A stretch of DNA of 57,931 bases from a virus. Its lineage: Duplodnaviria > Caudoviricetes. The position numbers and the translations under genes are program-made. The stretch is from positions 1-57,931 of IMG/VR virus record IMGVR_UViG_3300012667_000325; one strand, given 5' to 3'. The notes beneath the pieces were generated by a model, which was not told where the DNA came from, did no database searches, and saw nothing but the letters and a program-made list of their open reading frames with translations. This document shows, one piece after another, positions 12,976-25,100 of the stretch; positions within the stretch are counted from its first letter, which is position 1, and each line of letters starts with the position of its first letter.

Positions 12976-13071
12976 TTCTCCAGATTGTTACAGAAACAAG
13001 ATTCGAAAGGTGACCCCCCACGCAGGGTCTGTAGCTCCGGTTAATCGGAAGCGCGGGGGGTCGAACTCAGG

Positions 13072-13563
13072 TTAATCCCAAGGATTTGCCTTCTTACCGG
13101 CAGGAGCCTCAGCAGCCTTTGCGGGGGCGGCCTTAGCAGGAGCCTTTGCGGGCTTGTCATCCGCAGCGAACAAGAATGCGCGCACACGGTTGCTGTCTTT
13201 GTAGCCGCCGGTACCCTTCTGAGTGTCCACGGCTGCTTGGAACTTCTTGCCGATCAACTTGTCGGTGTCGTCGCAGTCCGCTTTGCCGCAGGCGGTAGCC
13301 CAAGCCACGAGCTGTTGACGACCGATCTTCTGAGCCATCTCGCTCTTGTTGACGGTGTTGAAGTTCTGCCAGATCCAGCGACCGTTGAACTCGCCACCGA
13401 CGACTTCAAATTTCACTTTGATCATCTCACCGCCTGAGGCAGTGCTTTTCTCTTCGGCATCGATACCAACCAGCGTGTACTCACCATCAGGGATAGGGTC
13501 GTAGTTACCAGAGGGTGCGTCGTTAACGTCGACTTCAGACGTGTCAAAACCAAATTTAGCCAT
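13072..13563 (-). CDS. DUF669-like single-stranded DNA-binding protein
   Basis: YDPIPDGEY...GRWIWQNF pattern with an Ala/Pro/Lys tail ending NPWD; adjacent to the Sak4-like ATPase. Confidence 0.78.
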   Translation of the reverse strand: MAKFGFDTSEVDVNDAPSGNYDPIPDGEYTLVGIDAEEKSTASGGEMIKVKFEVVGGEFNGRWIWQNFNTVNKSEMAQKIGRQQLVAWATACGKADCDDTDKLIGKKFQAAVDTQKGTGGYKDSNRVRAFLFAADDKPAKAPAKAAPAKAAEAPAGKKANPWD

Positions 13564-13592
13564 GTTGTTTCTCCTTTGAAATGGCGGGGGGA

Positions 13593-14333
13593 TTAGTGAG
13601 CGATAGGGATCAGTTTAGCGAGGGTTTCGATGTTCATATCGGCATCCTCAGGGCAGTCGTAACGGTTTTTAGCCGCATACGCTGGGGTCTCAATAAAGTG
13701 CAACAGGCGGTCACCGTTGGTGGTGCCACGAGTCTTCTTAGCGTTGAAACCGGCGTCATCTTTCTTGATGATGACTTTGAAGGCGCAGAACGCCAACACA
13801 TCGGCCCACTCTTGCAACAAGGCGTTGCAGCGGTTAGGCAGCTTAGGCTGATAGCGGTCATACGGCTCGGTGCGCGGGTCTTCAAACTTCACCACGGCAG
13901 CGTGAGCAATGAGGACCACGTTCATGCCTTTCTTCAGGCGGAGTGCGTCAAGCCCTTGCAGGATCTCACGGAACTCCTCTGCGATGAACATCTGACCCTT
14001 GCCGAACGACTGCTCTTTGTCATCGTACTTAGAGTTCACACTCTCAACGATGAGCGGCTCAATCAACCAGTCCACCGAGTCAACCACCACGGTCTTGAAC
14101 TCATGGTCTTCTTTGAGCAGGGTCTTGATGCTCTCGACGACATCGTTCAGCGTAGTAGCGCGGGGGAACGAGGTCACGTCAAGCGAATCCAAGCCGTCTT
14201 CGGTACTGATGAAGATGGGCTTAGGGAACTGGCTAGCCAGCGTTGACTTGCCGATACCGTGGCCGCCATAAATGCAGATACGGGGCGGGACGGCTTGTTT
14301 GCCGACCCGAAGGTTTTCCATCCAATTTGCCAT
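13593..14333 (-). CDS. Sak4-like AAA ATPase / recombinase
   Basis: YGGHGIGKST Walker A, TVVVDSVDWL Walker B, LIAH and AKNRY. Probable start is ATG 14333 (MANWMEN). Confidence 0.85.
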   Translation of the reverse strand: MANWMENLRVGKQAVPPRICIYGGHGIGKSTLASQFPKPIFISTEDGLDSLDVTSFPRATTLNDVVESIKTLLKEDHEFKTVVVDSVDWLIEPLIVESVNSKYDDKEQSFGKGQMFIAEEFREILQGLDALRLKKGMNVVLIAHAAVVKFEDPRTEPYDRYQPKLPNRCNALLQEWADVLAFCAFKVIIKKDDAGFNAKKTRGTTNGDRLLHFIETPAYAAKNRYDCPEDADMNIETLAKLIPIAH

Positions 14334-14364
14334 TTTTACTTTCTCACTTTCTAAGTTATGAGGC

Positions 14365-14694
14365 TTACGCCTCGTCAAAATACCACTCTTGTGGTACGTA
14401 TTGAAAAGTGTTCCTATCCCAGCTGAGCAGGTCCACTTTACCAACCATTTCAGACACCAGCGCGGTGCAAATTGCACACAACGCAGGGTCTCCAATCATC
14501 AACAGGTAGTCGCCCGCCTGCCAGTCTTTGAGTATGTGACGCGCCTTGCTTATCATCGCATCGGTGTCGTAAGGCTTGCGCGGGTTTGCGAACACGGCCC
14601 GCAGCGCACCATACTTCTTAGCGTCAGACAAGTCCTTATTGTTATCCACCTGCACGACGTAGACCGTGCGAGTGTTACCGAGTTCATTGTTCAT
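14365..14694 (-). CDS. Conserved hypothetical phage protein
   Basis: VYVVQ...DLSDAKKYG...DYLLMIGDP; overlaps the end of the polymerase gene. Confidence 0.65.
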   Translation of the reverse strand: MNNELGNTRTVYVVQVDNNKDLSDAKKYGALRAVFANPRKPYDTDAMISKARHILKDWQAGDYLLMIGDPALCAICTALVSEMVGKVDLLSWDRNTFQYVPQEWYFDEA

Positions 14695-16528
14695 CTGATT
14701 TCTTCTTTCGAGTTTTCTTTGGGGGCGGGGCGACAAGTTTAAGCTGTTCGTCAGTTAAATATGCGTGACACCCAACCGCGATTGCGATCTTGATTGCCTC
14801 CTTGTAATACCAACCGTAGTCAAGGTCTGCTGGGTGCGTGACCTTGTCTTCAAGAGTCATACAGGCCCGAGCGCCGTCAGTCTTTGGAACTTTGTTGGCG
14901 TTCTTGATGTACTTAAGTGGCGGTAGGCTCTCATCCGAGGACTGATACCAACGTACAACCTTGCCGAGCGGAACGCCATTTTGTTCGCCGCCGCCAGTGA
15001 CGTTTCTTGCACTGATAAAATCGACGAAAGGTGCATTCCTAATAGTGTCCTCAAACGGAGTTCCGTTCGCAAGCCACGCGCCGACCGCATCTGCTGTAAC
15101 TTGCGCAGTCGGGTTTTTCTTAAGCGAGAGGGGAGCATAAATGCCTTTCGTTTTCAGCTTGCGGTCAGGTTTGACAGCAAAATAATTGTTGACGTCCTTC
15201 ATAGCCAGCACACGGTACGGCGTGAACTCAAATTCAAACCGCGACACCTGACTGAAACGCTTGACTACCTTCTGAACACCAGCTTCGAGGTGGTTTCCGT
15301 AGCGGATCGCGATGCCGTCAGTGTTGGCGCTAAGCGTGGTGGCCCCGAGGATTTCGAGCCACTCAATCAGCATCAACAATGTGAACTGGCCAGTGAGCGT
15401 AACGGCGAGCATCAGGTCAGGCGAGTACAACACAGAGTACTTGCTGGCGAGCTTGCCGAACGTGCCGTTGAGCGAAATCTTCAGTGTTTCGTTGGTGGCT
15501 TTATCACCTGTACGCTTAGCCTCAAGTCGACGCTCGTAGATTTGTCGGTATTCGTCGACAAACCGTTTACCAAGGCTCGCCGGTACAAATCCGCACTCAA
15601 GGATGATACTAGGGTAGAAGCTAGCCGCATCAATATCACAGATGATATCTCCTCCGGCGACATAACAGACTGATTTATCATGAGTGCTGTGTATACCACC
15701 GACACCGAGCTGGTATGTTCCACTTCCGAACCGGATAACGTCTCCGCCGAGAAAATCAGGGAGGATGACGTGTCCAGTAGACTGGTTGATGTCGAAGACA
15801 TGGCGGGAGACCCTTTCAAGCAGGTGCTGTAGCTCGGCGTCTTGAAACTTCAAGAAGGCGGGCGGCGTGTAGGTGATCGTTTTAGGGATCTTGTTGTCAC
15901 GGCGTTGCAGGCTCATCGAGGTGATGTATGCCTGCTCAGCCATTTGCGCGTCAGACTTGCTACGCATGTCAACACCGTACTGCTTAGACATCGCGATACG
16001 CAGCATGAGTTCAGGCTCGAGCCGGTTGAGCAGCTCTTCCGTAGTGTCAAGGTCGTTGTCGCAGTACGAGTCAACAACCACGCCGTCTTCTACCCTGATG
16101 TTCTTATCGTGGGCGATCGGCATGTCTTGCAGCAACGGCATGTGCATCCGTGCGCCGTAGGCTTTGAGGCCGACGAACGAGGGCGCAACTTCAATCAAGT
16201 CGATCGTGTCTATCTGCATACGTAGCAGAGAATGTTTAGTGTAAGCGTTCCAAGGCGACAAGCGGTTCACAATGATGTCATCTGCTATACGCTTGATTTC
16301 AATTTCGTTTCGCCCAGCACAAAACGCTGACAAAATGATATTGTCAAAGCTGTGATTGTTAAACCCGACGTAGGTCATATTAGGGCGGTTCAAGAACTCC
16401 CACAAACGCTCGACCGCGCGCGGCTCATTACGGCGAAAACGGAAATACTCACCTGTCTCAATATCTTTGAAAGATATCAAGGTGTAGTTGGGTATCGTTT
16501 CGCAGTCGAAAACGTAAGTGGATGACAT
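14684..16528 (-). CDS. Family-B DNA polymerase with 3'-5' exonuclease
   Basis: Exonuclease motifs FDCET, GFNNHSFD and YCDND; polymerase motifs DAASFYPS, KISLNGTFGK and NTDG. Confidence 0.9.
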   Translation of the reverse strand: MSSTYVFDCETIPNYTLISFKDIETGEYFRFRRNEPRAVERLWEFLNRPNMTYVGFNNHSFDNIILSAFCAGRNEIEIKRIADDIIVNRLSPWNAYTKHSLLRMQIDTIDLIEVAPSFVGLKAYGARMHMPLLQDMPIAHDKNIRVEDGVVVDSYCDNDLDTTEELLNRLEPELMLRIAMSKQYGVDMRSKSDAQMAEQAYITSMSLQRRDNKIPKTITYTPPAFLKFQDAELQHLLERVSRHVFDINQSTGHVILPDFLGGDVIRFGSGTYQLGVGGIHSTHDKSVCYVAGGDIICDIDAASFYPSIILECGFVPASLGKRFVDEYRQIYERRLEAKRTGDKATNETLKISLNGTFGKLASKYSVLYSPDLMLAVTLTGQFTLLMLIEWLEILGATTLSANTDGIAIRYGNHLEAGVQKVVKRFSQVSRFEFEFTPYRVLAMKDVNNYFAVKPDRKLKTKGIYAPLSLKKNPTAQVTADAVGAWLANGTPFEDTIRNAPFVDFISARNVTGGGEQNGVPLGKVVRWYQSSDESLPPLKYIKNANKVPKTDGARACMTLEDKVTHPADLDYGWYYKEAIKIAIAVGCHAYLTDEQLKLVAPPPKKTRKKKSDEQ

Positions 16529-16965
16529 TAACGATCCTGATTGACGTAGCCGATTGACGCGTCAGCGCCGTCATCAGACGTAGCGCCGTTGATGGCCTGC
16601 TGAATGCGGCCCGCAACAAGGTGCAACGTGCCGGTGCTCTGCCAAGTGAGCAGGTGGCTGATGATGTCGGCATCGTCGCCGGTGAGCTGATTAGCTGCCA
16701 AGTACTCATTGATGACCTGACGTGGCACCTGAGGGATGCGCTCAGAGATCTCAACTTGAGGCGCGTCTTGACGGCGCTCGGCGAGCTTCTTGACGAAGTG
16801 CAACGCCTTACGCAAGTCCTCAACGCCGTTCTTGTTGCGCCAGCGGGTGATGTACTTAGTGGCGCAACCCTCAAGGTAGCCCACGCCGTAGGCGTCAATC
16901 AAGTCCCAGTGCTGGATACCTGAGCGGTAGTGGTTGCCGCCGATTTGCATGTTGTTAGCATTCAT
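16528..16965 (-). CDS. DUF3310 protein (T7 gp1.7-like nucleotide kinase family)
   Basis: QIGGNHY...YLEGCATKYITRWRNKNGVEDLRKALHF signature. Confidence 0.82.
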   Translation of the reverse strand: MNANNMQIGGNHYRSGIQHWDLIDAYGVGYLEGCATKYITRWRNKNGVEDLRKALHFVKKLAERRQDAPQVEISERIPQVPRQVINEYLAANQLTGDDADIISHLLTWQSTGTLHLVAGRIQQAINGATSDDGADASIGYVNQDR

Positions 16966-17465
16966 TTCAAAATCTCCGAGAGTTGGTCATTAATAAGGTC
17001 AAACAATTCGCGCTCGCGCCCGACAAGGATCATACTTTCGGCGTAGCTCATGTAGCGGGAATAGACAAGGCTCATCTTACGGTTACCCATCTCAATCTCA
17101 CGCAAACAGAACAAAGCGCCTTGCGCGATGTCAGCGAGCTTGAGGGTGCGTTCTTCATGCGGGGTGAGGCTCAACACGCCTAAACCCACGGCAGCCATCA
17201 GGCGCATCTCAAGCAGTGTGACCTGCTCGCCAATACCGTACTCACGCTTAGCGGGGGAAGGAATGTCGCCGGTGATGTGCTCAGACAAGTCGTGCACGAG
17301 AGCGGCTTCAAGCAGGGCAACGCTAGCATGGTGGTTGGTCAGAACCAAACACAACATTGCAACGCCGTGCGAATGATGACCGACGGTTTCTTCACGCAGG
17401 GTGGTGACGGTGTGATACCGCTTGACCTCGCTGCCGGCCATAATAAATTCAAGGGTGTTTTTCAT
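16962..17465 (-). CDS. HD-domain 5'-deoxynucleotidase / dNTPase (YfbR-like)
   Basis: VKRYH, ETVGHHS, LVHDLSEHITGDIPSPAK and KLAD motifs. Confidence 0.85.
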   Translation of the reverse strand: MKNTLEFIMAGSEVKRYHTVTTLREETVGHHSHGVAMLCLVLTNHHASVALLEAALVHDLSEHITGDIPSPAKREYGIGEQVTLLEMRLMAAVGLGVLSLTPHEERTLKLADIAQGALFCLREIEMGNRKMSLVYSRYMSYAESMILVGRERELFDLINDQLSEILK

Positions 17466-17497
17466 CAAGTTACTCCAGTTATCAAGTTATGCTACGA

Positions 17498-17550
17498 ATT
17501 TTAGCCTCAATTTTTACACGGTCACGATTGTATTTTCAAATCGTGACCGT
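17498..17550 (-). promoter_or_regulatory. Putative promoter: GATTTGAAAATACAATC box plus TAAAAT, inside a 12-bp perfect inverted repeat
   Basis: Inverted repeat ACGGTCACGATT (17518-17529) / AATCGTGACCGT (17539-17550). The box and TAAAAT recur at 25833-25876. Confidence 0.55.
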
Positions 17551-17559
17551 ATTCATCAT

Positions 17560-18555
17560 TTACTCTTTCTCGGCCCTAAGCAATTCGCGCTTGTGGATCC
17601 AATTAAACACCGCGCGCTTCCAGTCTTGAGCGCGGATCTTGGCGGCAAAGCCCATTCCGTCACCGGCGCGGATCTTGCGAATGCGGCTGACCATGGCCAT
17701 CGGCTGCGCCACGTGAGTGAAGAACGGGTTCTTGTACTCGGCGGATTGATTGAACGGATCGCAGCAGAACTTCTCACAATCCAGCAGGAATGATTTGTAG
17801 TCTCCGTTGAGCATGATAGGTAGCGCGCCGACCGCGCCCTGTGAGTACAAGTCGTAGTCCTCAACAGTGGGCGGGTTTTCAATGTGCTTGGCAGCATCGT
17901 ACAAATTGACGTACAAGTGGAGATTGTTGCTCACCTGACGGTAAGGGCCGCAGTGCATGTTGAGCGCGCTAGCAACGAACTCCTGCAAGAAGCTGAAGTG
18001 CACAGCGTTAGCGCCGTACGCACCCCACCAGATGTCGTTACTGCGGTTGAACACGGTCATGTTCAAGCGCCCGCCACGGGTGTCAAATACGACCTGTGTG
18101 TTGCAAGCCTTGTCCTTTGTGCGCTTGTTCAAGTCGTCTTGATCCCACATCTGAATGACCGCCTGACGGCTTGAGGGGTCTTTGCGCAGGAGCTTGATGA
18201 CTTCCTCGAGCTGATCAAACCCGAAGTGTCGACGCCAGCGGTAGCCGTAGGCAGCGTTAAACACCTTGCCGTCATCGCTGAACTGATTGATGGTGCTGTT
18301 GAAGTGCTGCAGGAACTGCACGTCACGGCGACCCGCCAGCATCCAGATCGACTCCATCAGGTGGAAGATCGGGTTCGCGTCACGCCCCGTATGGAACAAC
18401 ACGCGCTCCTGCGGGTAGCGGTAGGTGGTGATGACCGGCTCGGCTATGACGTAAGCGGGGCCGTTACGCGTCTGCTCAGGCTTGAGCCCCATCGTCTTCA
18501 TCTTCCAGAAAATCTCGCTAAATGCGTGATTCACGTTACGTACTTGGATTTCCAT
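17560..18555 (-). CDS. Thymidylate-synthase-fold dUMP hydroxymethylase
   Basis: AAYGYRW, SRQAV, catalytic Cys in KDKACN, RSND...GANAVHF with Asn at the dUMP-specificity position, and NLHLY. Lies in a hypermodification context. Confidence 0.85.
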   Translation of the reverse strand: MEIQVRNVNHAFSEIFWKMKTMGLKPEQTRNGPAYVIAEPVITTYRYPQERVLFHTGRDANPIFHLMESIWMLAGRRDVQFLQHFNSTINQFSDDGKVFNAAYGYRWRRHFGFDQLEEVIKLLRKDPSSRQAVIQMWDQDDLNKRTKDKACNTQVVFDTRGGRLNMTVFNRSNDIWWGAYGANAVHFSFLQEFVASALNMHCGPYRQVSNNLHLYVNLYDAAKHIENPPTVEDYDLYSQGAVGALPIMLNGDYKSFLLDCEKFCCDPFNQSAEYKNPFFTHVAQPMAMVSRIRKIRAGDGMGFAAKIRAQDWKRAVFNWIHKRELLRAEKE

Positions 18556-19473
18556 TTAGAACAACTCCTCGGGTTTGTAGATAGTTTTAGGGACGCCCTC
18601 ATTCAGGACGCAGCGGCAATATTTGCTGAATTCGCACATAACATTTTGCACATCATGTAGCGTCATGTCTTCAATGTGCAGTTGCTCAACGATCTGATCG
18701 CGGATCTCGATGAGCGCCTTGTTGAAGTCGCCTTGACCCCAGCTCGCAAACGGGCGGCGACCCTTGAGGTAGTTCAGGCCGCGAGAGCTTCCTGGGCCTA
18801 TAGGGGCGTAAGTGTAAAGGTCTTCAAAGTCCATACCGGTGTAAGTCAGGTCGGCAGCCACTTGACCGGCCATAAAGGTGCTCAGGCCGAAGCACTGTGA
18901 GAGCGCCTCGACAAACGCCTGAACCGTCTGCTCACCGGCCCACAGCGACATATGAACGCTGTCCGCATTCTTAATGACGTCACCAATGATGTGCTTGGCG
19001 ATGGCGGAAGACTTGTTACCACCCACGTCCATCTTGGTCGGGTAGACCATGTACGCGCCGGAGTACACCTTTGTGTCGTTAACCTTGAGCGCCTCAATCG
19101 TTACTGAGAACAACTCAGCATCGAAGTTTTCAGGGGCGCACGGAATGACCTGCTCGTGCAGCAACGCCTGCAAGGTCGGGGGCCAGTTGATGAGGCGCGC
19201 GATGAGCAACGTGAACCACAGGTGCTCGTCACCGGTGTCAACAGCGGGTTGAATCAGGTGATCAATGATCCACTGAGAGACGCGATCGTCACGGCGGCGG
19301 ATGTTGGTGAACTTGTACTTCTTGAGCACAGGGTCATTAGTGAGCTGGTCAAGCGGCCAGCCGCCTTCTTTAGCGACTCGCACGGCCTCGCGTTCCCACA
19401 CGAAGTACAGCAACCCCTCGAGCGAGGTTACGTTCTTCGCGTCAGGGCGCGGGTAAGGACAAACATCAATCAT
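18556..19473 (-). CDS. 5-hmdU DNA kinase helical domain (aGPT-Pplase1 family)
   Basis: FVWERE...DPVLKKYKFTNIRRRDDRVS, RLINWP, FMAGQVAADL, GPGSSRGL and QNVMCEFSKY motifs. Confidence 0.85.
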   Translation of the reverse strand: MIDVCPYPRPDAKNVTSLEGLLYFVWEREAVRVAKEGGWPLDQLTNDPVLKKYKFTNIRRRDDRVSQWIIDHLIQPAVDTGDEHLWFTLLIARLINWPPTLQALLHEQVIPCAPENFDAELFSVTIEALKVNDTKVYSGAYMVYPTKMDVGGNKSSAIAKHIIGDVIKNADSVHMSLWAGEQTVQAFVEALSQCFGLSTFMAGQVAADLTYTGMDFEDLYTYAPIGPGSSRGLNYLKGRRPFASWGQGDFNKALIEIRDQIVEQLHIEDMTLHDVQNVMCEFSKYCRCVLNEGVPKTIYKPEELF

Positions 19474-20051
19474 ACTTCGGCATCTTTCAAATATTGCACG
19501 ACGGTTCCGACGGCGTTAAGGTGGTCAATCCAACGGACATCGTAGCCACCGGCCTGAGTCAACAGCTCCGCGCTACGGTGGCACTGCTCGTAAGCCGAGC
19601 GCATGGTCTTCTCAGGGTCAAATACCTTCTCGTTACCGGCAGCGGCACGACGAGCGAGGACGCGAGAGAGGCAAGTGTCCCAAGGCGTATCAAGGAACCC
19701 GAAGATAGCGCCGTGGTCTTTGAGAATAGGAGCCACATGACCACCCGCGCTGGACTTGCTCATTAGCAGCCCCTCAACGAGTACATGACCGTGACCGTGC
19801 GCCTTCGTGGTGCGTTCGGCGATCTCCTCCTGAGTGCTGATTCCGTCCGTGCCGCCGCAGGTGTTCTCGTAAGAACCCACGATGAACACGGGCAACATGA
19901 TACCCCATGATGTTGCGTCGACTCGGTAACCGGCGGGCTTGCTCGGCTTACCACCCAGCGCCTGAGTCGGCAACTTGTCAAGGAACCGGCGGACGATTGT
20001 GGTCTTACCCGAGCCGTTACAGCCACGAATGTTGACGATTTGATTTGTCAT
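19470..20051 (-). CDS. P-loop nucleotide/DNA kinase
   Basis: IRGCNGSGKTT Walker A, VLVEG, and LDTPWDTCLSRVLARR lid; ATGA-coupled to the next gene. Confidence 0.82.
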   Translation of the reverse strand: MTNQIVNIRGCNGSGKTTIVRRFLDKLPTQALGGKPSKPAGYRVDATSWGIMLPVFIVGSYENTCGGTDGISTQEEIAERTTKAHGHGHVLVEGLLMSKSSAGGHVAPILKDHGAIFGFLDTPWDTCLSRVLARRAAAGNEKVFDPEKTMRSAYEQCHRSAELLTQAGGYDVRWIDHLNAVGTVVQYLKDAEV

Positions 20052-20230
20052 TTTTGCTCCCCTTTAGCCGTCATCGCTTTCACGACGAACTTAGCATTTC
20101 TGCCGGCATAAGAGCTAGTATTCAAACGAGCAGCCTCAGCTTTAGCGGACTTAGAATCTAAGTAGACAGCCCTGACAACCGGCACCTGAAAATAACCCAG
20201 AGTTATAGCGTACAACAGATAAACTTTCAT
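20048..20230 (-). CDS. Hypothetical protein
   Basis: Starts MKVYLLYA with a GGAG RBS and overlapping junctions. Confidence 0.5.
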   Translation of the reverse strand: MKVYLLYAITLGYFQVPVVRAVYLDSKSAKAEAARLNTSSYAGRNAKFVVKAMTAKGEQK

Positions 20231-20406
20231 TGTTCTTCTCCAAAAGCAAGATGCAGCAATAGGTACCACATCGCGAGGTGAGCAGAGTCAAAAGTCTGCG
20301 TCTTGTTGTGCACCTGAGCGTAGTGCTTGTGCCAACCTAAGTTGTCACCACCGAGAGGGTATTTGCTCAGGCGCTTGAGTTCTCGCTGGCGCTGAGTCGG
20401 GGTCAT
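20227..20406 (-). CDS. Hypothetical protein
   Basis: Starts MTPTQRQRELK; ATGA overlaps. Confidence 0.5.
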   Translation of the reverse strand: MTPTQRQRELKRLSKYPLGGDNLGWHKHYAQVHNKTQTFDSAHLAMWYLLLHLAFGEEQ

Positions 20407-20579
20407 TCTTGCTCGCATGGTATGTCTCTCCATTCGCCTTTAGTCATCGGGTATTCGATGTCGTACGCAAACCACTGCTGCAGGATGCGAACCTTACGCG
20501 CCACCGTGACGGTTCCGTCAAGGCTCGTGTGTTCTATGATACTGCGCTCAACAAAGCGCAAACGAGGGGTTGGGTTCAT
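20403..20579 (-). CDS. Hypothetical protein (not in ORF track)
   Basis: 58 aa, MNPTPRLRFVER...RILQQWF...EWRDIP; ATGA overlaps. Confidence 0.55.
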   Translation of the reverse strand: MNPTPRLRFVERSIIEHTSLDGTVTVARKVRILQQWFAYDIEYPMTKGEWRDIPCEQE

Positions 20580-21574
20580 AAGAAAAACTCCGCACGATAA
20601 GGGGTACCCGTTTCAGGGAACAACGAGGCCGCCGACTTAGCATTGAACTTTGCCGGCGAACACTCACGACGCAACCACTCAGGCAGGAGCGCCTCGCGCA
20701 TACCTTTGAACACCTGAGTGTGCTCTTGCAGGCCGCGCTCGTCAGCCCACTCAATACGGTCTTGCGCCATGTCGGCGTAGACTCCTGGATAGCGACGACC
20801 GAAGAAGTGATTCTTGAACGTACACAGGTTAGACTCAAAGGTGAACCGACCCACGTTAGGAACGTCAGGGTTCAGAGCCCTGAACTTCTCAATGTGCGCA
20901 TCAGCTGAGGCGGCTAAAAAGCCACACATCATCTTGAAGTTATTGTAGTTGCCGTCCTGACCGTTGTCAAGGCGTTTGTCCCACACCAACTCGTCTTTAC
21001 CGATGAGGAACAGCATACCGTTACGGTGTGACTTGCTGCCCGACTTGTCACTGAAGATCAAGTCGTCACAGTCGTTGCCGAAGCCCATGATGTTCACGTA
21101 CTCGAGGTAGCTGAACGAACTCAGACGACCGAAAGTGTAGTACTCCTCACGAACCAGCTTCCACAGGTCAGCGTACGCGCCGGTGAGCATCTGTTCCTGC
21201 GAGCCGTGCTTCTCAACCAACTCGGCGTAACGGCGGATAGCGGGTAGGGTGTCCTTCTTTTGATACCGGCGGTCGGTGTCAAATTGCAGGGTCTCCCAGT
21301 TCGCGTTGAACCACTCCTCAAAGCCCTTGAGCGGGGCTCCGGCGGGCGGACACTCAGACAAGCGTTGGAACATGCGCAGCGAGGTGATGGGGTTCTGGGT
21401 CAAACCGTTCAGGAATGCGAACCAGAGTTTCTCCTCAGCGCCCCAGCCGTTAGCCTGAGCCAGAGCGGGCATGTAGAGGTACACGAGTCCAGGCATGACC
21501 CCGAACTCTAGGTTCATCTTGTACAGCGCGGAGAAGTACGCCTCACGCTTCTCCGGCAGGCGGTAGTCAATCAT
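20576..21574 (-). CDS. Amino acid:DNA transferase (aGPT-Pplase2 / AADT family)
   Basis: KLWFAFLNG, FDTDRRY, FGRLSSFSYLE, SHRNG, ESNLCTFK and RYPGVY motifs; clustered with the kinase and PLP enzyme. Confidence 0.82.
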   Translation of the reverse strand: MIDYRLPEKREAYFSALYKMNLEFGVMPGLVYLYMPALAQANGWGAEEKLWFAFLNGLTQNPITSLRMFQRLSECPPAGAPLKGFEEWFNANWETLQFDTDRRYQKKDTLPAIRRYAELVEKHGSQEQMLTGAYADLWKLVREEYYTFGRLSSFSYLEYVNIMGFGNDCDDLIFSDKSGSKSHRNGMLFLIGKDELVWDKRLDNGQDGNYNNFKMMCGFLAASADAHIEKFRALNPDVPNVGRFTFESNLCTFKNHFFGRRYPGVYADMAQDRIEWADERGLQEHTQVFKGMREALLPEWLRRECSPAKFNAKSAASLFPETGTPYRAEFFL

Positions 21575-21676
21575 TCTGCATCTCCATCCAGTAAATAAAA
21601 CCCACGAGCATCGCGACTGTGAGGCTCGCGCCGAGAGCCATCAACAACACCATGAGAGCTACGTTTTCTAACATGT

Positions 21677-21889
21677 TCAATCCCTCACGTTGAACTCAAG
21701 GCGGCGGTCAACCGCAAACCCGAGCGACACGCCGAAGATGACGGCGCAGAACCGAGCCTGCCAAGTCCAGTCCGCAGGGTCACGCGACCACTCGATGAAC
21801 GCGCCAAACACGTAAGCGAAGGCACAGGTGCCGACAAAGGGTAGCAGCCAGTAGATCAGGCTCAACAGGTCTTTTGCGAATTTGTTCAT
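21677..21889 (-). CDS. Small membrane protein
   Basis: Two hydrophobic segments; starts MNKFAKD. Confidence 0.5.
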   Translation of the reverse strand: MNKFAKDLLSLIYWLLPFVGTCAFAYVFGAFIEWSRDPADWTWQARFCAVIFGVSLGFAVDRRLEFNVRD

Positions 21890-22191
21890 AGGTATCTCCA
21901 GTAGAAAATGCCGAGGGCGATCCAGCAGCAAACGCCGATGGCTAACATCGCTTTGTCTTGCCAGCGTTGCTCAGGCGGGAAGAAGGTCTCCATACCATCA
22001 CCCAAATGACGGAAGGCGTCATCGGTCGTGCGGGGGAAGCAACGGGTGGTCGGGCAGCCGTGGTTGTCAACGTAGTGCTGAGCGCGCTCAAGCGTTGAGG
22101 CGCGAACGATCTTAGGCTTCTTGTAGATAGCAACGACCAGCTTACGCTTGAGACGGCGCTTGATGATTGTGTAAATACGCTTGAACATCAC
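21886..22191 (-). CDS. Hypothetical protein with C-terminal transmembrane segment
   Basis: TTRCFPRTTDDAF motif and a hydrophobic C-terminus. Confidence 0.55.
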   Translation of the reverse strand: MMFKRIYTIIKRRLKRKLVVAIYKKPKIVRASTLERAQHYVDNHGCPTTRCFPRTTDDAFRHLGDGMETFFPPEQRWQDKAMLAIGVCCWIALGIFYWRYL

Positions 22192-23150
22192 ACGGCTCCT
22201 GTGTTAGTGTAAAAAGGCTTAACCACTGCTGGGTTAGGCGCGCTGCCGACGATCCAGAAACCGGTGCGGTCATCAAGATCAACAGGGCGCATAGTGCGCA
22301 GGTAGCGCCACATCTTGGCCTCGTAGGTCGGGTGGAAGTTGATACCGTCATGGTTCTCACCCTTGAACTTGTCGCTGTACTTGCTGAAGTCAGTGTCGTG
22401 CAGGCTGTAGTGCTCCCACTCAAACGGTAGGCGATCAATGTCAACACCCATGATCTCCATACGCTCACGAACCCACTTACGCTTGTTCGGGCCGATGCCG
22501 AGCGTGAACAGCTTTGTCAGGTTCTTTGAGTCACGGCTCAGGCCGAGCAGGATGCTGCAAAGAGAGTTGCATGAGCCGGCAGGCGCTATCAATGTGCGGA
22601 GTTCATCAGGCAGGTTACGCACCTGATTGGCACCGACCTCGTGGAACTTCAATACGTCCTCAGCAGGGCGGGTCTTGTGCGGCACAGTGATACCGTACTC
22701 AACCACGAGCGAGGTGGGTTGCGTCAGGTCGGCCACACGGCGCTGGATGATCGGGTTGTACGGCCCGTTCACGTACTCAAACACAGCGCCAAAGCCTTTA
22801 GCGATACTCGGGTTCTCATGTGTGAGCACCGTGTGGGGCTTGCTGTAGACTACCTGACGGCACTTGAGGCCGAAGTGCGCACCGACGATAGCGGACATAC
22901 TGAGCTGAGGGCTCTGAATACTCGCGCCGGTCAGCACGTGAGTCTTGTCTGCGCGGTAACGGTTCATGTACCAGATGAGCTGGCGCATCTTAGACCCGTT
23001 GGGGCCGCCGTAGCCGAGCGGAGCGAAGTAATCCTCACGCTTGAACCACAGACCCTGATGGTTCTCCCAAGGGGTCAGGTCACCTAGGTGTTGCTCCCAC
23101 TGAACCTGAGCGCGGTCAAGTGCGAGGACGGGGAAAATTGATTGTGTCAT
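22188..23150 (-). CDS. PLP-dependent enzyme (fold type II), putative decarboxylase acting on amino-acid-modified DNA
   Basis: WFKREDYF...NGSKMRQL (PLP lysine region), SPQ, PAGSCNS and FHPTYEAK motifs; upstream of the AADT gene. Confidence 0.82.
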   Translation of the reverse strand: MTQSIFPVLALDRAQVQWEQHLGDLTPWENHQGLWFKREDYFAPLGYGGPNGSKMRQLIWYMNRYRADKTHVLTGASIQSPQLSMSAIVGAHFGLKCRQVVYSKPHTVLTHENPSIAKGFGAVFEYVNGPYNPIIQRRVADLTQPTSLVVEYGITVPHKTRPAEDVLKFHEVGANQVRNLPDELRTLIAPAGSCNSLCSILLGLSRDSKNLTKLFTLGIGPNKRKWVRERMEIMGVDIDRLPFEWEHYSLHDTDFSKYSDKFKGENHDGINFHPTYEAKMWRYLRTMRPVDLDDRTGFWIVGSAPNPAVVKPFYTNTGAV

Positions 23151-23449
23151 TTCAAGCCTTTACGCAGGTGTTTAAGCACTTCCGGAACCAGCGCGGGTTG
23201 CAGGGGTGCTTGTTTGTTGAATAATTCTATCTCACGCATCATGTGCTCGCAACCGGCGTCAAAGCCCTTGATGTAGTCAGACATCTGAGTCTCGGCGGCG
23301 TGAGGTTTGCAGTCTCTATGCGTGTCACGGAAGAAGTCCATCTGCGCGATGATCTGGTCTATCTTAGCAGGCATACTGATGACAGCAGCGCACTCGCAAC
23401 GGGTGCAATACATGGTGCGGCCTCGGGCCTCAATGTGGTTAGTGGTCAT
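23147..23449 (-). CDS. Hypothetical protein with CxxC
   Basis: MTTNHIE...YCTRCEC...HRDC; ATGA overlaps. Confidence 0.5.
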   Translation of the reverse strand: MTTNHIEARGRTMYCTRCECAAVISMPAKIDQIIAQMDFFRDTHRDCKPHAAETQMSDYIKGFDAGCEHMMREIELFNKQAPLQPALVPEVLKHLRKGLK

Positions 23450-24150
23450 ACGGTTCCTTCGGCAATTTGTTTCAACAGGGTCTTCAGCTCGGACGTACCG
23501 GCGCTGTGGCGGTGGTAACGAGGACACTTGCGGTAGCGGTCTTCAACCTGATGGCTGAGGAAACGGGTCATGCCGATAGTGTGCTTACGCATGATGACCT
23601 GCTTGGTGCGGGCTTCGTCAGAGTCGTAACAGGTGATGTCAAGCATCGGGAACTCTTGCTTGAGGATGTTACCCTGATGAGGTTGCATACCTAAGATCAG
23701 GACACCAACTTTAGGCTCACGGGGAGCGTTGCAAGGTGGCTCGGGGTTGTGGCGGTGACCGTGTGTAACCCTCATAGCTGAGTTTGCTATTATCAGGTCA
23801 GACAGCTTGTCCGCAACGCGATCTGCAATCTTGTCAATCAACGACTCGAGCAGGGTGGCCAGCTCATCACGCTGCGGGATGACCGCATGCTCAACCACGG
23901 CGGCCTCAGCCTCAACAATCATCTCTTTGATTGAGTTGGCGGCTAAGGAATGAGCCTTAGCGTTCATGTCCTTGAGTTCTTTAGGGGTGAAGATCTTACG
24001 ACGGCGAGGTTGAAGCAGGGTTTCCTGCGCCGCGATAACTAAACCTACTTTTGAATAACGAACACCGGACTTGTTCAACAAGTGTGCCATACGCTGCACG
24101 ATCAACGTGCGCTCTTCGCCAGTCCAGCGAACTCGGGTTTGCGTGCTCAT
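23446..24150 (-). CDS. Hypothetical protein
   Basis: 234 aa with a GAGGAG RBS. Confidence 0.65.
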   Translation of the reverse strand: MSTQTRVRWTGEERTLIVQRMAHLLNKSGVRYSKVGLVIAAQETLLQPRRRKIFTPKELKDMNAKAHSLAANSIKEMIVEAEAAVVEHAVIPQRDELATLLESLIDKIADRVADKLSDLIIANSAMRVTHGHRHNPEPPCNAPREPKVGVLILGMQPHQGNILKQEFPMLDITCYDSDEARTKQVIMRKHTIGMTRFLSHQVEDRYRKCPRYHRHSAGTSELKTLLKQIAEGTV

Positions 24151-24253
24151 AATGGTGACTCCTCTTGTTGCTCACGTTGCTGGCGAGCGTATTCGCTCTT
24201 CTGTTTGTTAGTCCAAGGCACGGGGCCGGTGACAGGAGGGAAGGGCCAAGTGT

Positions 24254-24517
24254 TCATGCTACCACCTCTTCCTGCTCAACAATCTTGAACTCACGGCGGG
24301 CGTCTTCACCGCGATGGCTCACAGCGTAGTCATTCAGCTCAGTCCAGAACTTGAGCTTGCGTGTAGCGGTTTCTTGGTCAACAAGGCGATCAAGTACATG
24401 CCATCCACCCCACATCATTTCCGCATCAAAGTACGCGCCATTGTAGCAGCGCGGGTCGTTGAGGTGTAAGTACTTAGCACGGGACATCAGCACGTAAGGG
24501 TTAGTGTCGTAGCTCAT
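24254..24517 (-). CDS. Hypothetical protein
   Basis: 87 aa; ATGA overlap. Confidence 0.55.
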   Translation of the reverse strand: MSYDTNPYVLMSRAKYLHLNDPRCYNGAYFDAEMMWGGWHVLDRLVDQETATRKLKFWTELNDYAVSHRGEDARREFKIVEQEEVVA

Positions 24518-25074: not shown

Positions 25075-25100
25075 GTGAGTTATTCCTGAGAGTTATTGAG

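What the first reader, a model, noticed from the sequence alone, without database searches (positions are those of the whole stretch)
14684..23150. Thymidine-hypermodification operon running into the DNA polymerase, in a podovirus-like phage
Seen: one leftward run encodes a PLP enzyme (22188-23150), an AADT/aGPT-Pplase2-like protein (20576-21574), a P-loop kinase, a 5-HMUDK helical domain, a thymidylate-synthase-fold enzyme, an HD hydrolase, DUF3310 and PolB. The TS-fold enzyme has RSND and Asn at the dUMP-specificity site. Established: in Salmonella phage ViI and Pseudomonas phage M6, 5-hmdU replaces T, is pyrophosphorylated on DNA, receives an amino acid from an AADT and is then tailored by PLP, radical-SAM or flavin enzymes. 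Inference: this phage has hmdU DNA that is partly hypermodified. The examples I know are myo- and siphoviruses, whereas this genome has podovirus-type tail tube and ejection genes.
Basis: partly seen in the sequence, partly recalled or inferred. Interest (0 to 1): 0.88.

Follow-up and report, generated by a model that had tools for sequence, protein, structure and literature searches.

The report
Phage thymine hypermodification gene cluster
An uncultured 58-kb phage carries an intact set of genes for replacing thymine in its DNA with an amino-acid-derived base, a known anti-restriction chemistry built here from parts seen in two model phages, so it is a new carrier of a known system rather than a new system.

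Summary
On the minus strand, 14684-23150 encodes these genes in tightly coupled order:
- a ViI gp226-type PLP enzyme
- an amino-acid:DNA transferase (AADT/aGPT-Pplase2)
- a P-loop 5-hmdU DNA kinase
- an aGPT-Pplase1 protein (Pfam calls it 'HMUDK helical domain')
- a thymidylate-synthase-fold enzyme with Asn at the uracil-specificity site
- a YfbR-like HD hydrolase
- a DUF3310 protein
- PolB

The kinase-Pplase1-TS-HD-DUF3310-polymerase half matches Pseudomonas phages PaMx11/M6 in sequence and order. The AADT-PLP half matches Salmonella phage ViI and actinophages. No radical-SAM, dCMP deaminase, dUTPase or MazG gene was found.

Most likely mechanism:
- 5-hmdU is built into the DNA.
- It is monophosphorylated.
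- An amino acid with a free alpha-amine is attached.
- That amino acid is decarboxylated, giving 5-NeOmdU or a close analogue.

The donor amino acid cannot be read from sequence. The donor-pocket residue is Thr252, unlike the residue at that position in the two characterised transferases aligned here (glycine type and ViI serine type).

The cluster is kept in 40 of 41 related IMG/VR loci that reach far enough. The head genes resemble the podovirus HTVC023P. Hypermodification genes in HTVC023P-type podoviruses were reported in 2022, and this scan has met the same cluster in other genomes. Verdict: a new member of a known kind.

The parts
22188..23150 (-). PLP-dependent enzyme of the ViI gp226 type (predicted decarboxylase of the amino-acid-thymine adduct); proposed PLP lysine K54
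   Evidence: BLASTP to ViI gp226: 35% identity, E 1e-63, K54 aligned to K92. To Montesquieu MONT_41: 29%, E 1e-30. To the M6-type PLP enzyme of Bhz59: only E 4e-4. K54 is invariant in 27 of 27 aligned homologs. AF2 model pLDDT 79.3. Foldseek top hits are D-cysteine desulfhydrase 4d9e/4d8t (E 5e-12) and the ACC deaminase homologue 1j0a. phrog_3650, E 7.4e-83.
21886..22191 (-). small ORF (101 aa), function unknown, overlaps the PLP gene's stop by 4 bases
   Evidence: No Pfam or PHROG hit. Detected by tblastn only in the closest relatives L003 and L004.
21677..21931 (-). small ORF (84 aa), function unknown
   Evidence: No significant Pfam hit. Detected in 4 of 80 related loci: L003, L004, L005, L019.
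20576..21574 (-). amino-acid:DNA transferase (AADT / aGPT-Pplase2); catalytic Cys251, metal ligands Glu247-Ser248, Asp176, donor-pocket Thr252 and Tyr262
   Evidence: PF18724, 66.3 bits against a cut-off of 26.2. It is the only copy in the genome. ViI gp247: 27%, E 2e-27. Zemanar gp3 36% and Montesquieu MONT_42 34%. In alignment A1, C251 aligns with PaMx11 gp46 Cys247, D176 with Asp175 and E247/S248 with E243/T244. AF2 pLDDT 91.3. The three best Foldseek hits are PaMx11 gp46/PUGT crystal structures 8z2n/8z2m (prob 1.00, TM 0.63).
20048..20579 (-). three small overlapping ORFs (58, 68, 73 aa), function unknown, between the AADT and the kinase
   Evidence: ORFs at 20403-20579, 20227-20433 and 20048-20269. 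No Pfam hit. By tblastn the 58-aa ORF is detected in L003 and L005, the 68-aa ORF in L003, L004, L005 and L019, and the 73-aa ORF in none of 80 loci.
19470..20051 (-). P-loop 5-hmdU DNA kinase (5-HMUDK); Walker A motif GCNGSGKTT
   Evidence: PF18748, 24 bits (cut-off 27). As a control, the biochemically validated PaMx11 gp49 scores only 18.1 bits on the same model. BLASTP to PaMx11 gp49: 30%, E 1.5e-18. To Bhz59_40 (M6 gp54 counterpart): E 2.6e-9. To ViI gp67: E 5e-6.
18556..19473 (-). aGPT-Pplase clade 1 protein (Pfam 'HMUDK_hel'), function not established; overlaps the kinase gene by ATGA
   Evidence: PF18723, E 1.3e-37. tblastn hits M6 ORF055, PaMx11, YuA gp14 and PhiW-14 gene 72. Lee 2018 Table 3 lists PhiW-14 gp72 and SP10 gp186C as aG/PT-PPlase1. 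Montesquieu's annotated 'clade 1' protein is also PF18723. In 75 of 75 related loci it is in a different reading frame from the kinase gene, so the two are never fused.
17560..18555 (-). thymidylate-synthase-fold enzyme, predicted dUMP hydroxymethylase; Cys151, R171-S-N-D174, Asn183
   Evidence: PF00303, E 1.4e-24, covering only residues 54-223. The best solved relative is the CMP 5-hydroxymethylase MilA 5b6d (E 5e-24), against E 1e-13 for thymidylate synthases. Asn183 aligns with the Asn of TS and with the Asp of MilA. Full-length best phage matches: Bhz59 44%, PaMx11 gp51 43%, M6 42%, ViI 34%.
16962..17468 (-). YfbR-like HD phosphohydrolase, predicted to remove thymine nucleotides from the pool (inferred)
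   Evidence: PF12917, E 2.5e-12. PaMx11 gp52 sits at the same position in its cluster: 35%, E 7e-14, also PF12917.
16528..16965 (-). DUF3310 protein, possibly a nucleotide kinase for 5-hmdUMP (speculative)
   Evidence: PF11753, E 1.9e-6. Bhz59_46: 43%, E 8e-35. PaMx11 gp53: 33%, E 1.4e-24, at the same cluster position. T7 gp1.7, annotated 'nucleotide kinase', carries DUF3310 at E 4.5e-23. Direct similarity to T7 gp1.7 is only E 0.013.
14684..16528 (-). family B DNA polymerase
   Evidence: phrog_1252, E 1.3e-162. Best tblastn matches are Enterobacter phage EC151 and Escherichia phages of the Seurat/CAjan group, about 40% identity.

Best explanation
This is a working gene cluster for post-replicative thymidine hypermodification in a complete, uncultured 57.9-kb phage genome.

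Proposed steps:
1. The TS-fold enzyme converts dUMP to 5-hydroxymethyl-dUMP. This is inferred from Asn183, Cys151 and its closest relatives.
2. The HD hydrolase lowers the thymine nucleotide pool, and the DUF3310 protein or host kinases raise 5-hmdUMP to the triphosphate. Both are inferred. The DUF3310 role is speculative.
3. PolB builds 5-hmdU into DNA in place of T (inferred).
4. The P-loop kinase puts one phosphate on the hydroxymethyl group of a fraction of 5-hmdU residues in DNA. This step was shown for its relative PaMx11 gp49.
5. The AADT uses Cys251 to attack C6, expels phosphate and attaches an amino acid. This mechanism was shown or proposed for PaMx11 gp46.
6. The PLP enzyme forms a Schiff base through K54 with the adduct's free alpha-amine and removes CO2. 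This step was shown for ViI gp226.

There is no radical-SAM isomerase. The donor must therefore be attached so that its alpha-amine stays free, as serine is in ViI. The most likely product is 5-(2-aminoethoxy)methyl-dU or a close analogue, which protects the DNA from restriction enzymes.

My odds:
- A 5-hmdU-based hypermodification of this kind: 0.85.
- The donor is serine and the product is 5-NeOmdU: about 0.45.
- The phage is short-tailed: about 0.75.
For: - All pathway enzymes are present and intact, with catalytic residues kept: AADT C251, E247-S248 and D176; PLP enzyme K54; TS-fold enzyme C151 and N183; kinase Walker A motif.
- The AADT fold matches the PaMx11 gp46 crystal structure. The PLP enzyme fold matches fold-type-II PLP enzymes.
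- The gene order AADT ... kinase - Pplase1 - TS - HD - DUF3310 - polymerase is the same as PaMx11 gp46 ... gp49 - gp50 - gp51 - gp52 - gp53 ... gp55.
- The AADT and the PLP enzyme match ViI gp247 and gp226, whose functions were reconstituted.
- The whole record has no radical SAM, dCMP deaminase, dUTPase or MazG gene.
- Of 41 related IMG/VR loci reaching at least 7.5 kb downstream of the AADT, 40 keep the kinase, Pplase1, TS, HD and PolB genes, and 39 keep DUF3310. Of 40 loci reaching at least 4.5 kb upstream, 33 keep the PLP gene.
- The protein collection holds 591 AADT and 611 PLP-enzyme homologs at E <= 0.001.
- Indirect hint: 4 of 7 G+C-only 6-base palindromes are nearly absent (O/E < 0.1), against 3 of 40 palindromes that contain A/T (Fisher p 0.006).
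Against: - No chemistry was seen, and nothing here shows that the virion DNA is modified.
- The AADT is only 27% identical to ViI gp247. Its donor-pocket residue is Thr252, where ViI has Trp and the glycine enzymes have Lys (residue roles from PMC13458397). Serine is therefore a guess.
- The kinase is under Pfam's cut-off, and the PLP enzyme has no Pfam hit at E 0.01.
- 7 of 40 relatives lack the PLP gene near the AADT, so decarboxylation is not obligatory in the lineage.
- Three T-containing sites (AACGTT, AAGCTT, AGCGCT) are avoided as strongly as the G+C-only ones, so T modification does not explain all site avoidance.
- Whether this PolB accepts 5-hmdUTP is unknown.
- No dCMP deaminase or dUTPase supplies dUMP, unlike in ViI, PaMx11 and phage 15599.
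Confidence: 0.8

Rival explanations
1. The pathway is the same, but the AADT attaches a donor other than serine. Candidates are threonine, homoserine, cysteine, or a diamino acid such as ornithine, lysine or 2,4-diaminobutyrate joined through its side-chain amine. The PLP enzyme then decarboxylates that adduct, so the final base is one not yet described, or a known polyamine-thymine made by a new route.
For: - The donor-pocket position that is Lys248 in the glycine enzymes (PaMx11) and Trp288 in ViI, by alignment A1, is Thr252 here. It is also Thr in the closest relatives Zemanar gp3 and Montesquieu MONT_42.
- That position corresponds to G227 of phage 15599, by the paper's statement that K248 corresponds to G227.
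- The 2026 NAR paper shows that swapping two pocket residues switches the donor, and that many Pplase2 clusters are uncharacterised.
- Identity to ViI gp247 is only 27%.
- Tyr262, equivalent to the carboxylate-binding Tyr257, is kept. This argues for an amino acid rather than a plain diamine.
Against: - The PLP partner is clearly of the ViI gp226 type (35%, E 1e-63), and ViI gp226 acts on O-seryl-thymine.
- Serine is the only donor so far shown to leave a free alpha-amine without an isomerase.
Confidence: 0.33
2. The PLP enzyme is not a decarboxylase. As a fold-type-II enzyme it could instead carry out beta-elimination, beta-replacement or deamination on the adduct, or make the donor molecule for the AADT.
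For: - The nearest solved folds are D-cysteine desulfhydrase, ACC deaminase, cysteine synthases and SbnA. None of these is a decarboxylase.
- 7 of 40 relatives do without the gene.
Against: - ViI gp226 and M6 gp52 belong to the same fold group by the authors' modelling and were shown to decarboxylate.
- The window's enzyme aligns with gp226 over its full length, including the lysine.
Confidence: 0.08
3. The phage is not short-tailed. The head module was exchanged between morphotypes, and unrecognised genes encode a long tail, so the 'podovirus' part of the finding is wrong.
For: - Many structural ORFs have no family hit: 3405-5270, 6164-7483 and several of 42332-45861.
- Tail morphology cannot be read from the head genes.
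- The nucleotide half of the cluster comes from a siphovirus lineage (PaMx11/M6).
Against: - No PHROG or Pfam hit was annotated as a tape measure, tail sheath, tail tube or major tail protein among the 38 other (non-cluster) ORFs scanned across. Some tail-fiber ORFs also gave weaker secondary hits to myovirus-type fiber or baseplate families.
- TerL, portal, capsid, a GroES-like protein and three further virion proteins match HTVC023P, which was seen by TEM as a podovirus, and all seven also match CRP-902.
- There is an ejection-protein hit at 5270-6154.
Confidence: 0.2
4. The TS-fold enzyme is an ordinary thymidylate synthase, and the cluster is inactive or acts on something other than 5-hmdU.
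For: Pfam calls it Thymidylat_synt, and phage records annotate its relatives as thymidylate synthase.
Against: - It is closer to a hydroxymethylase (MilA, E 5e-24) than to any solved TS (E 1e-13).
- Only residues 54-223 match the TS profile, and the TS C-terminal part is replaced.
- Its full-length relatives are the enzymes of M6, PaMx11 and ViI, phages that contain 5-hmdU-derived bases.
- The kinase and AADT have no substrate without 5-hmdU, and no Tet/JBP hit was found. That search had no positive control, so it is weak evidence.
Confidence: 0.03

Closest known systems
Salmonella phage ViI (Vi01) 5-NeOmdU pathway: gp67/gp243 kinases, gp247 serine:DNA transferase, gp226 PLP decarboxylase (Lee et al. 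2018, 2021)
   Same: The enzyme logic is the same: hydroxymethylase, P-loop kinase, Pplase2 transferase and PLP enzyme, with no radical-SAM step. The PLP enzyme is 35% identical with the lysine aligned, and the AADT is 27% identical with the catalytic Cys aligned.
   Different: - ViI is a 157-kb myovirus with the genes scattered over the genome. Here they form one tight run.
- ViI has a second kinase, a dUTPase-like enzyme and a dCMP deaminase. Here there is one kinase, an HD hydrolase and no deaminase.
- The donor-pocket residue is Trp in ViI and Thr here.
- The ViI PLP enzyme has an insertion of roughly 45 residues that is absent here.
Pseudomonas phages PaMx11 and M6/YuA (Mesyanzhinovviridae) hypermodification clusters
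   Same: - Gene order and sequence match for the kinase (30%), Pplase1 (29-32%), TS-fold enzyme (43-44%), YfbR-like HD (31-35%) and DUF3310 protein (33-43%). These run into the DNA polymerase.
- The AADT catalytic residues are shared.
   Different: - Those phages are siphoviruses with a family A polymerase and a dCMP deaminase.
- Their AADT is glycine-specific (Lys248).
- Their tailoring is done by FAD lyase plus acetyltransferase (PaMx11) or by radical SAM plus a distant PLP enzyme (M6).
- Neither the window's AADT nor its PLP enzyme found a match in the M6 genome.
Uncharacterised AADT-PLP pairs of actinophages (Glutamicibacter phage Montesquieu MONT_42/MONT_41; Mycobacterium phage Zemanar gp3)
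   Same: These are the closest cultured relatives of the AADT (34-36%), and they share Thr at the donor-pocket position. Montesquieu also has the adjacent PLP enzyme (29%), a Pplase1 and a TS-fold enzyme.
   Different: - Montesquieu is a siphophage with PolA.
- Zemanar has the AADT next to ParB-like and tRNA-ribosyltransferase-like genes, with no kinase nearby.
- Neither product is known.
HTVC023P-type uncultivated Podoviridae with 'DNA hypermodification' partner genes (mSystems 2022, PMC9599517)
   Same: This is a podovirus lineage whose head genes resemble the window's. The paper reports thymidylate synthase plus aG/PT-PPlase1 near the DNA polymerase, and in some genomes a 5'-deoxynucleotidase.
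   Different: - In the passages I read, that paper names only TS and Pplase1 beside PolA. 'PLP' occurs 0 times, and both occurrences of 'kinase' concern the secretion cluster.
- The window adds the kinase, Pplase2 and PLP enzyme and uses PolB.
- The relationship is distant: TerL 32.5%, capsid 39%.
Acinetobacter phage SH-Ab 15599 alpha-dapT pathway (NAR 2026, PMC13458397)
   Same: The core is the same: 5-HMUDK plus Pplase2 acting on 5-hmdU DNA. The paper defines the catalytic Cys, the metal ligands and the donor-pocket positions used here.
   Different: - Its donor is a free diamine, and no PLP step is described in the pathway section I read.
- Its pocket residues are Gly/Asp, where the window has Thr/Tyr.
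- Its dTTP removal is by a dUTPase-fold enzyme, not an HD protein.

Membership tests
AADT / aGPT-Pplase2 (PF18724) | Profile match above the curated cut-off | tested here: met
   66.3 bits against a cut-off of 26.2; 63.8 bits in the six-frame search of the genome.
AADT / aGPT-Pplase2 (PF18724) | Catalytic cysteine that attacks C6 (PaMx11 gp46 Cys247), and Asp175 | tested here: met
   C251 and D176 align with Cys247 and Asp175. C251 is invariant in 10 of 10 sequences (A1) and 28 of 28 sequences (A5). Residue roles are from PMC11472151 (passages read).
AADT / aGPT-Pplase2 (PF18724) | Metal-coordinating Glu-Thr pair (E222/T223 of phage 15599) | tested here: met
   E247-S248 align with E243-T244 of PaMx11 gp46. 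The equivalence to 15599 numbering is inferred from the shared motif and was not aligned directly.
AADT / aGPT-Pplase2 (PF18724) | Fold of the solved transferase | tested here: met
   AF2 model pLDDT 91.3. Foldseek ranks 1-3 are 8z2n/8z2m (PaMx11 gp46), prob 1.00, TM 0.63, E 2e-3. The next hits are HhH glycosylases at E 0.4 or worse.
AADT / aGPT-Pplase2 (PF18724) | Donor-pocket residues of a characterised specificity class (Gly: Lys/Tyr; diamine: Gly/Asp; ViI class) | tested here: not met
   The window has Thr252/Tyr262, which matches none of the three classes. The donor is therefore left open. This does not bear on membership of the family as a whole.
5-hmdU DNA kinase, P-loop (PF18748) | Profile match above the curated cut-off | tested here: inconclusive
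   24 bits against a cut-off of 27. The validated kinase PaMx11 gp49 scores 18.1 bits and ViI gp67 scores 386.5 bits on the same model, so the model is ViI-centred.
5-hmdU DNA kinase, P-loop (PF18748) | Sequence relationship to a biochemically validated 5-HMUDK, and a Walker A motif | tested here: met
   PaMx11 gp49: 30%, E 1.5e-18. Bhz59_40: E 2.6e-9. ViI gp67: E 5e-6. GSGKT is aligned. Validation of gp49, gp54 and gp67 is in Lee 2021.
aGPT-Pplase1 / HMUDK_hel (PF18723) | Profile match and relationship to M6 gp55, PaMx11 gp50 and PhiW-14 gp72 | tested here: met
   130.1 bits. tblastn hits to those genes. Bhz59_41: 32%, E 1e-37.
dUMP hydroxymethylase (thymidylate-synthase fold) | TS fold with the catalytic Cys, and Asn (uracil) rather than Asp (cytosine) at the specificity site | tested here: met
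   PF00303, 87.1 bits. C151 and N183 align with the Cys and Asn of TS 6auj. MilA has Asp at the N183 position.
dUMP hydroxymethylase (thymidylate-synthase fold) | Product is 5-hydroxymethyl-dUMP, not dTMP | not testable with these tools
   Only indirect evidence: it is closer to MilA (5e-24) than to TS (1e-13), and its nearest full-length relatives are in M6, PaMx11 and ViI.
ViI gp226-type PLP decarboxylase | Full-length homology with the Schiff-base lysine conserved | tested here: met
   35%, E 1e-63, K54 aligned to K92. K54 is invariant in 27 of 27 sequences.
ViI gp226-type PLP decarboxylase | Fold-type-II (tryptophan synthase beta-like) PLP fold | tested here: met
   Foldseek E 5e-12 to 4d9e, and a hit to 1j0a, the template named for gp226 by Lee 2021. 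There is no PF00291 hit at E 0.01, but gp226 itself is under that model's cut-off (30.7 against 35).
ViI gp226-type PLP decarboxylase | Decarboxylates an amino-acid-thymine adduct in DNA | not testable with these tools
   Inferred from homology only.
Short-tailed phages of the HTVC023P / CRP-901 type | Shared packaging, head and virion genes | tested here: met
   Window ORFs match both HTVC023P and CRP-902 for TerL, portal (31% over 698 aa; 35% over 632 aa), capsid (39%; 44%), the GroES-like protein and three further virion ORFs.
Short-tailed phages of the HTVC023P / CRP-901 type | Short tail: no tape measure, tail tube or sheath | tested here: inconclusive
   No such PHROG or Pfam annotation among the ORFs scanned, but several ORFs have no hit at all. 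Morphology needs microscopy.

The most novel reading that the evidence does not exclude
The Thr252-type transferase defines a large uncharacterised Pplase2 clade. It has 591 homologs in metagenomes and is shared with actinophages such as Montesquieu and Zemanar. In this reading the clade loads an amino acid other than serine or glycine onto phage DNA. With the gp226-like decarboxylase it would then make a thymine derivative that has not been described. The 7 of 40 relatives without the PLP gene would carry the undecarboxylated amino-acid-thymine as their final base.
Probability: 0.3. Interest if true: 0.6.

Novelty: new member of a known kind. Interest (0 to 1): 0.3.

Why it matters
Thymidine hypermodification shields phage DNA from restriction enzymes and is a source of enzymes for DNA labelling. 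This window shows that the kit is modular. A PaMx11/M6-type nucleotide-and-kinase half is joined to a ViI/actinophage-type transferase-decarboxylase half. The whole sits beside a family B polymerase, in a phage with HTVC023P-like head genes, and it recurs in dozens of related viral contigs. The one open point of real interest is the donor specificity of the Thr252-type transferase. This is cheap to test in lysates on 5-hmdU DNA and could reveal a new DNA base. Otherwise the finding is a further carrier of a pathway already worked out and already surveyed in metagenomes.

Tried and rejected
- Megablast of 14684-23150 against 50,697 phage records gave no match.
- phmmer of the AADT against PDB sequences gave 0 hits at E 1. 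The relationship to PaMx11 gp46 appeared only by alignment and by fold.
- Pfam on ten small or unknown ORFs of the leftward run gave nothing above E 0.03. PHROGs gave nothing for 23446-24150, 23147-23527, 25325-25684 and 12475-12975.
- The promoter and terminator scan of 9400-26100 was not above shuffles: 11 against 8.0 +/- 3.2, and 21 against 18.0 +/- 4.5. I make no claim about transcription units beyond gene overlaps.
- Complex prediction on the kinase and the Pplase1 protein (alignments A3 and A4) returned 'no answer' with score 0.00. This is no evidence either way, and I make no binding claim.
- The look-up of sequencing runs listed no RNA holder. All 24 rows are kept as Logan contigs, and the best share of words is 0.39. 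I did not lay any run, because contigs cannot show base modification. I therefore draw nothing about habitat or expression from it, and read laying was not used.
- I considered that the kinase and helical ORFs are a frameshifted single gene. I rejected this because they are in different frames in 75 of 75 related loci, and because they are separate genes in PaMx11 and Bhz59.
- I considered a Tet/JBP route to 5-hmU. There was no hit, but that search rang in no control genome, so it is weak.
- I built no phylogenetic tree. I did not use the third homologous-protein search, the search of protein representatives or the protein-atlas search.
- Supplementary files were not opened. Figure 2 and the supplements of Lee et al. 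2021, and the SSN supplement of PMC13458397, may already show this contig or its clade.

Full report
WHAT THE WINDOW IS. The window is a whole virus record of 57,931 bases with direct terminal repeats, estimated 100% complete. It has no near-identical relative among 50,697 deposited phage genomes. A leftward block of genes runs from about 25.7 kb down to about 9.6 kb and holds replication, recombination and nucleotide genes. A rightward block holds the helicase, primase, terminase, head and tail genes.

CHECK OF THE OBSERVATION.
- Pfam gives ADDT (PF18724, E 4.3e-18) for 20576-21574.
- Pfam gives HMUDK_hel (E 1.3e-37) for 18556-19473.
- Pfam gives a sub-threshold HMUDK_HMUD1 hit (24 bits, cut-off 27) for the P-loop protein 19470-20051.
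- Pfam gives Thymidylat_synt (E 1.4e-24) for 17560-18555.
- Pfam gives a YfbR-like HD domain (E 2.5e-12) for 16962-17468.
- Pfam gives DUF3310 (E 1.9e-6) for 16528-16965.
- PHROGs gives DNA polymerase (E 1.3e-162) for 14684-16528.

Neighbouring genes overlap by 1-4 bases or abut at most junctions. The consensus scan for promoters and terminators found nothing above shuffled controls.

THE PLP ENZYME. It has no Pfam hit at E 0.01, so I tested it in three ways.
- It is 35% identical over its full length to ViI gp226 (E 1e-63). Lys54 aligns with Lys92, the residue Lee et al. proposed as the Schiff-base lysine.
- Lys54 is invariant in 27 of 27 aligned homologs.
- An AlphaFold2 model (pLDDT 79.3) matches fold-type-II PLP enzymes. 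The best match is D-cysteine desulfhydrase at E 5e-12, and the matches include 1j0a, the template Lee et al. named for gp226.

It is only marginally similar to the M6-type PLP enzyme (E 4e-4). It is 29% identical to the enzyme next to the AADT of Glutamicibacter phage Montesquieu.

THE TRANSFERASE.
- The AADT is the only copy in the genome.
- It aligns with ViI gp247, the serine:DNA transferase, at 27% identity (E 2e-27). Its nearest cultured relatives are uncharacterised actinophage proteins: Zemanar gp3 at 36% and Montesquieu MONT_42 at 34%.
- In a ten-sequence alignment, Cys251 aligns with Cys247 of PaMx11 gp46, the nucleophile proposed to attack C6. Asp176 aligns with Asp175, and Glu247-Ser248 align with Glu243-Thr244.
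- A high-confidence model (pLDDT 91.3) finds the PaMx11 gp46 crystal structures as its three best matches (prob 1.00, TM 0.63). HhH glycosylases follow far behind.
- A 2026 paper shows that two pocket positions set the donor. They are Lys248/Tyr257 for glycine and Gly227/Asp238 for 1,3-diaminopropane.
- The window has Thr252/Tyr262 at these positions, and ViI has Trp288/Tyr300. The tyrosine that holds the carboxylate is kept, which argues for an amino acid donor. The other position matches no characterised class, so the donor cannot be named.

KINASE AND 'HELICAL DOMAIN'.
- The P-loop protein is below Pfam's cut-off. The validated kinase PaMx11 gp49 scores even lower on that model (18.1 bits), while ViI gp67 scores 386.5 bits.
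- Direct BLASTP gives E 1.5e-18 to PaMx11 gp49, 2.6e-9 to the M6 gp54 counterpart in Bhz59, and 5e-6 to ViI gp67.
- The 305-residue 'HMUDK_hel' protein is the aGPT-Pplase clade 1 paralog. It hits M6 ORF055, PaMx11 gp50, YuA gp14 and PhiW-14 gene 72.
- Lee et al. 2018 list PhiW-14 gp72 and the C-terminal half of SP10 gp186 as aG/PT-PPlase1. Montesquieu's annotated 'clade 1' protein hits the same Pfam model.
- Reactions without M6 gp55 still made the glycine adduct, so its role is unknown.
- In 75 of 75 related loci it lies in a different frame from the kinase gene.
- A complex prediction for the pair gave no verdict, so I make no binding claim.

THE NUCLEOTIDE SIDE.
- The best solved relative of the TS-fold enzyme is the CMP hydroxymethylase MilA (E 5e-24). 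Thymidylate synthases reach only E 1e-13.
- Cys151 aligns with the catalytic cysteine. Asn183 aligns with the uracil-specifying Asn of TS, where MilA has Asp.
- Only residues 54-223 match the TS profile.
- Of 1,661 phage records with a match, 103 cover at least 80% of the query. The best are Bhz59 (44%) and M6 (42%). PaMx11 gp51 is 43% identical and the ViI enzyme 34%.
- The HD and DUF3310 proteins match PaMx11 gp52 and gp53 and Bhz59_44 and _46, which sit in the same order.
- T7 gp1.7, annotated as a nucleotide kinase, carries DUF3310 (E 4.5e-23). Direct similarity to it is weak (E 0.013), so a 5-hmdUMP kinase role is speculative.
- The record has no dCMP deaminase, dUTPase, MazG or radical-SAM gene.

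A MOSAIC OF TWO KNOWN CLUSTERS. The PaMx11 gene order is gp46 AADT, gp47 FAD lyase, gp48 acetyltransferase, gp49 kinase, gp50 Pplase1, gp51 TS, gp52 HD, gp53 DUF3310, gp54, gp55 PolA. The window has PLP, two small ORFs, AADT, three small ORFs, kinase, Pplase1, TS, HD, DUF3310 and PolB. The second half is PaMx11/M6-like in both order and sequence. The AADT and PLP enzyme are ViI/actinophage-like and found no match in the M6 genome. 'An operon running into the polymerase' is thus the known arrangement, with PolB in place of PolA. The PolB's nearest relatives are in the Seurat/CAjan group of coliphages, at about 40% identity.

RELATIVES.
- A scan of IMG/VR found 85 relatives among 86 candidate stretches. 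The best 80 were kept, at 54-90% AADT identity. The longest of these contigs are 50-61 kb, apart from one of 101,830 bases.
- Of 41 loci reaching at least 7.5 kb downstream of the AADT, 40 have the kinase, Pplase1, TS, HD and PolB genes, and 39 have DUF3310.
- Of 40 loci reaching at least 4.5 kb upstream, 33 have the PLP gene and 7 do not: L024, L056, L059, L062, L065, L071, L074 (thresholds tblastn E 1e-5 and 30% coverage).
- In the two PLP-less loci I looked at (L024 and L071), no ORF over 171 aa fills the space. The PLP gene could still lie beyond the fetched flanks.
- The protein collection holds 591 AADT and 611 PLP-enzyme homologs at E <= 0.001.

MORPHOTYPE.
- TerL is closest to Roseobacter phages CRP-901 and CRP-902 (45-47%). 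It is 32.5% identical to pelagiphage HTVC023P.
- Seven window ORFs match HTVC023P: TerL, portal, capsid, a GroES-like protein and three further virion proteins. More ORFs match CRP-902.
- The preprint describing HTVC023P states that all ten isolates are Podoviridae by microscopy (passages read). The CRP-901 paper notes the homology of its structural genes to HTVC023P (passages read).
- No scanned ORF hit a family annotated as a tape measure, tail sheath, tail tube or major tail protein, although some tail-fiber ORFs gave weaker secondary hits to myovirus-type fiber or baseplate families. Several ORFs have no hit at all.
- CRP-902 itself has no hypermodification genes.
- I rate a short tail at about 0.75.

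WHAT IS ALREADY IN PRINT.
- Lee et al. 2018 and 2021 do not contain the word stem 'podovir' (0 occurrences each).
- A search for 'hypermodif' + 'podovir' + 'thymidine' found a 2022 mSystems paper. [quoted passage not shown]
- Lee et al. 2021 recovered 352 IMG/VR2 and 713 GOV2.0 contigs encoding 5-HMUDK, with combinations that include PLP enzymes (section read). I could not see their figure or supplements.
- Earlier notes of this scan describe the same cluster type in other genomes, and their follow-ups also filed it as a known pathway.

INDIRECT SIGN OF T PROTECTION. Taking a lead from another note on this genome, I compared observed and Markov-expected counts of palindromes.
- CCSGG occurs once against 78 expected.
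- CGGCCG occurs 0 times against 29 expected.
- GGCGCC occurs once against 30 expected.
- CCGCGG occurs 0 times against 13 expected.
- Among 6-base palindromes with an expected count of at least 5, 4 of 7 G+C-only sites have O/E < 0.1, against 3 of 40 sites that contain A/T (Fisher p 0.006).

This fits a phage whose T-containing sites are partly shielded by other means. However, AACGTT, AAGCTT and AGCGCT are avoided too, so it is only a hint.

VERDICT.
- The system is a new member of a known kind.
- The only part with room for discovery is the donor specificity of the Thr252-type transferase and hence the identity of the final base.

Noticed in passing
related loci L024, L056, L059, L062, L065, L071, L074: Seven of 40 relatives with enough upstream sequence lack the PLP gene beside the AADT but keep the rest of the cluster. 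In the two I looked at (L024 and L071), no ORF over 171 aa replaces it. These phages may stop at the amino-acid-thymine adduct.
   Followed up: partly
window 19470-20051 and its counterparts in L003-L082: Identity of the P-loop kinase to the window's is bimodal among relatives: 41-51% in 51 loci and 67-97% in 25 loci. Flanking genes vary smoothly (for example L009 48% against L011 81%). This suggests that the kinase gene alone was exchanged between two allelic types.
   Followed up: partly
whole window: There is strong avoidance of several palindromes: CCSGG 1 against 78 expected, CGGCCG 0/29, GGCGCC 1/30, CCGCGG 0/13, GGWCC 9/65, AACGTT 0/15, AAGCTT 0/12, AGCGCT 3/33. G+C-only 6-mers are over-represented among the avoided sites (4 of 7 against 3 of 40).
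   Followed up: partly
window 35695-38046: A 783-aa protein with a PcfJ-like domain (PF14284, E 4.3e-8) lies between the large terminase and the portal gene.
   Followed up: no
window 40837-41271: A GroES-like co-chaperonin gene (phrog_3188, E 1.1e-7) lies in the head module. It is shared with HTVC023P and CRP-902.
   Followed up: no
proteins P0072 and P0155 (relatives of the AADT and the PLP enzyme): One source labels these two adjacent relatives as a MAG of 'Micrococcales bacterium', on a contig of about 40 kb. This is either a phage contig binned with a host or a mis-binning. It is a possible host hint, since the AADT's nearest cultured relatives are actinophages.
   Followed up: no
L090 (Mycobacterium phage Zemanar) 1-2826: The AADT homolog gp3 sits at the genome's left end, beside a ParB-like protein and a gene annotated as queuine tRNA-ribosyltransferase. 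No kinase or TS-fold gene is in the 9.7 kb shown, so this is a different context for the same transferase clade.
   Followed up: no
window 31852-32460 and 33704-35275: The small terminase subunit (phrog_1482, E 7e-26) is separated from the large subunit by about 1.2 kb of small ORFs.
   Followed up: no
window 11323-14495: The leftward run continues past PolB with a Sak4-like annealing protein, an SSB, a Cas4-domain exonuclease and a Holliday junction resolvase. These are kept with the cluster in most relatives.
   Followed up: partly
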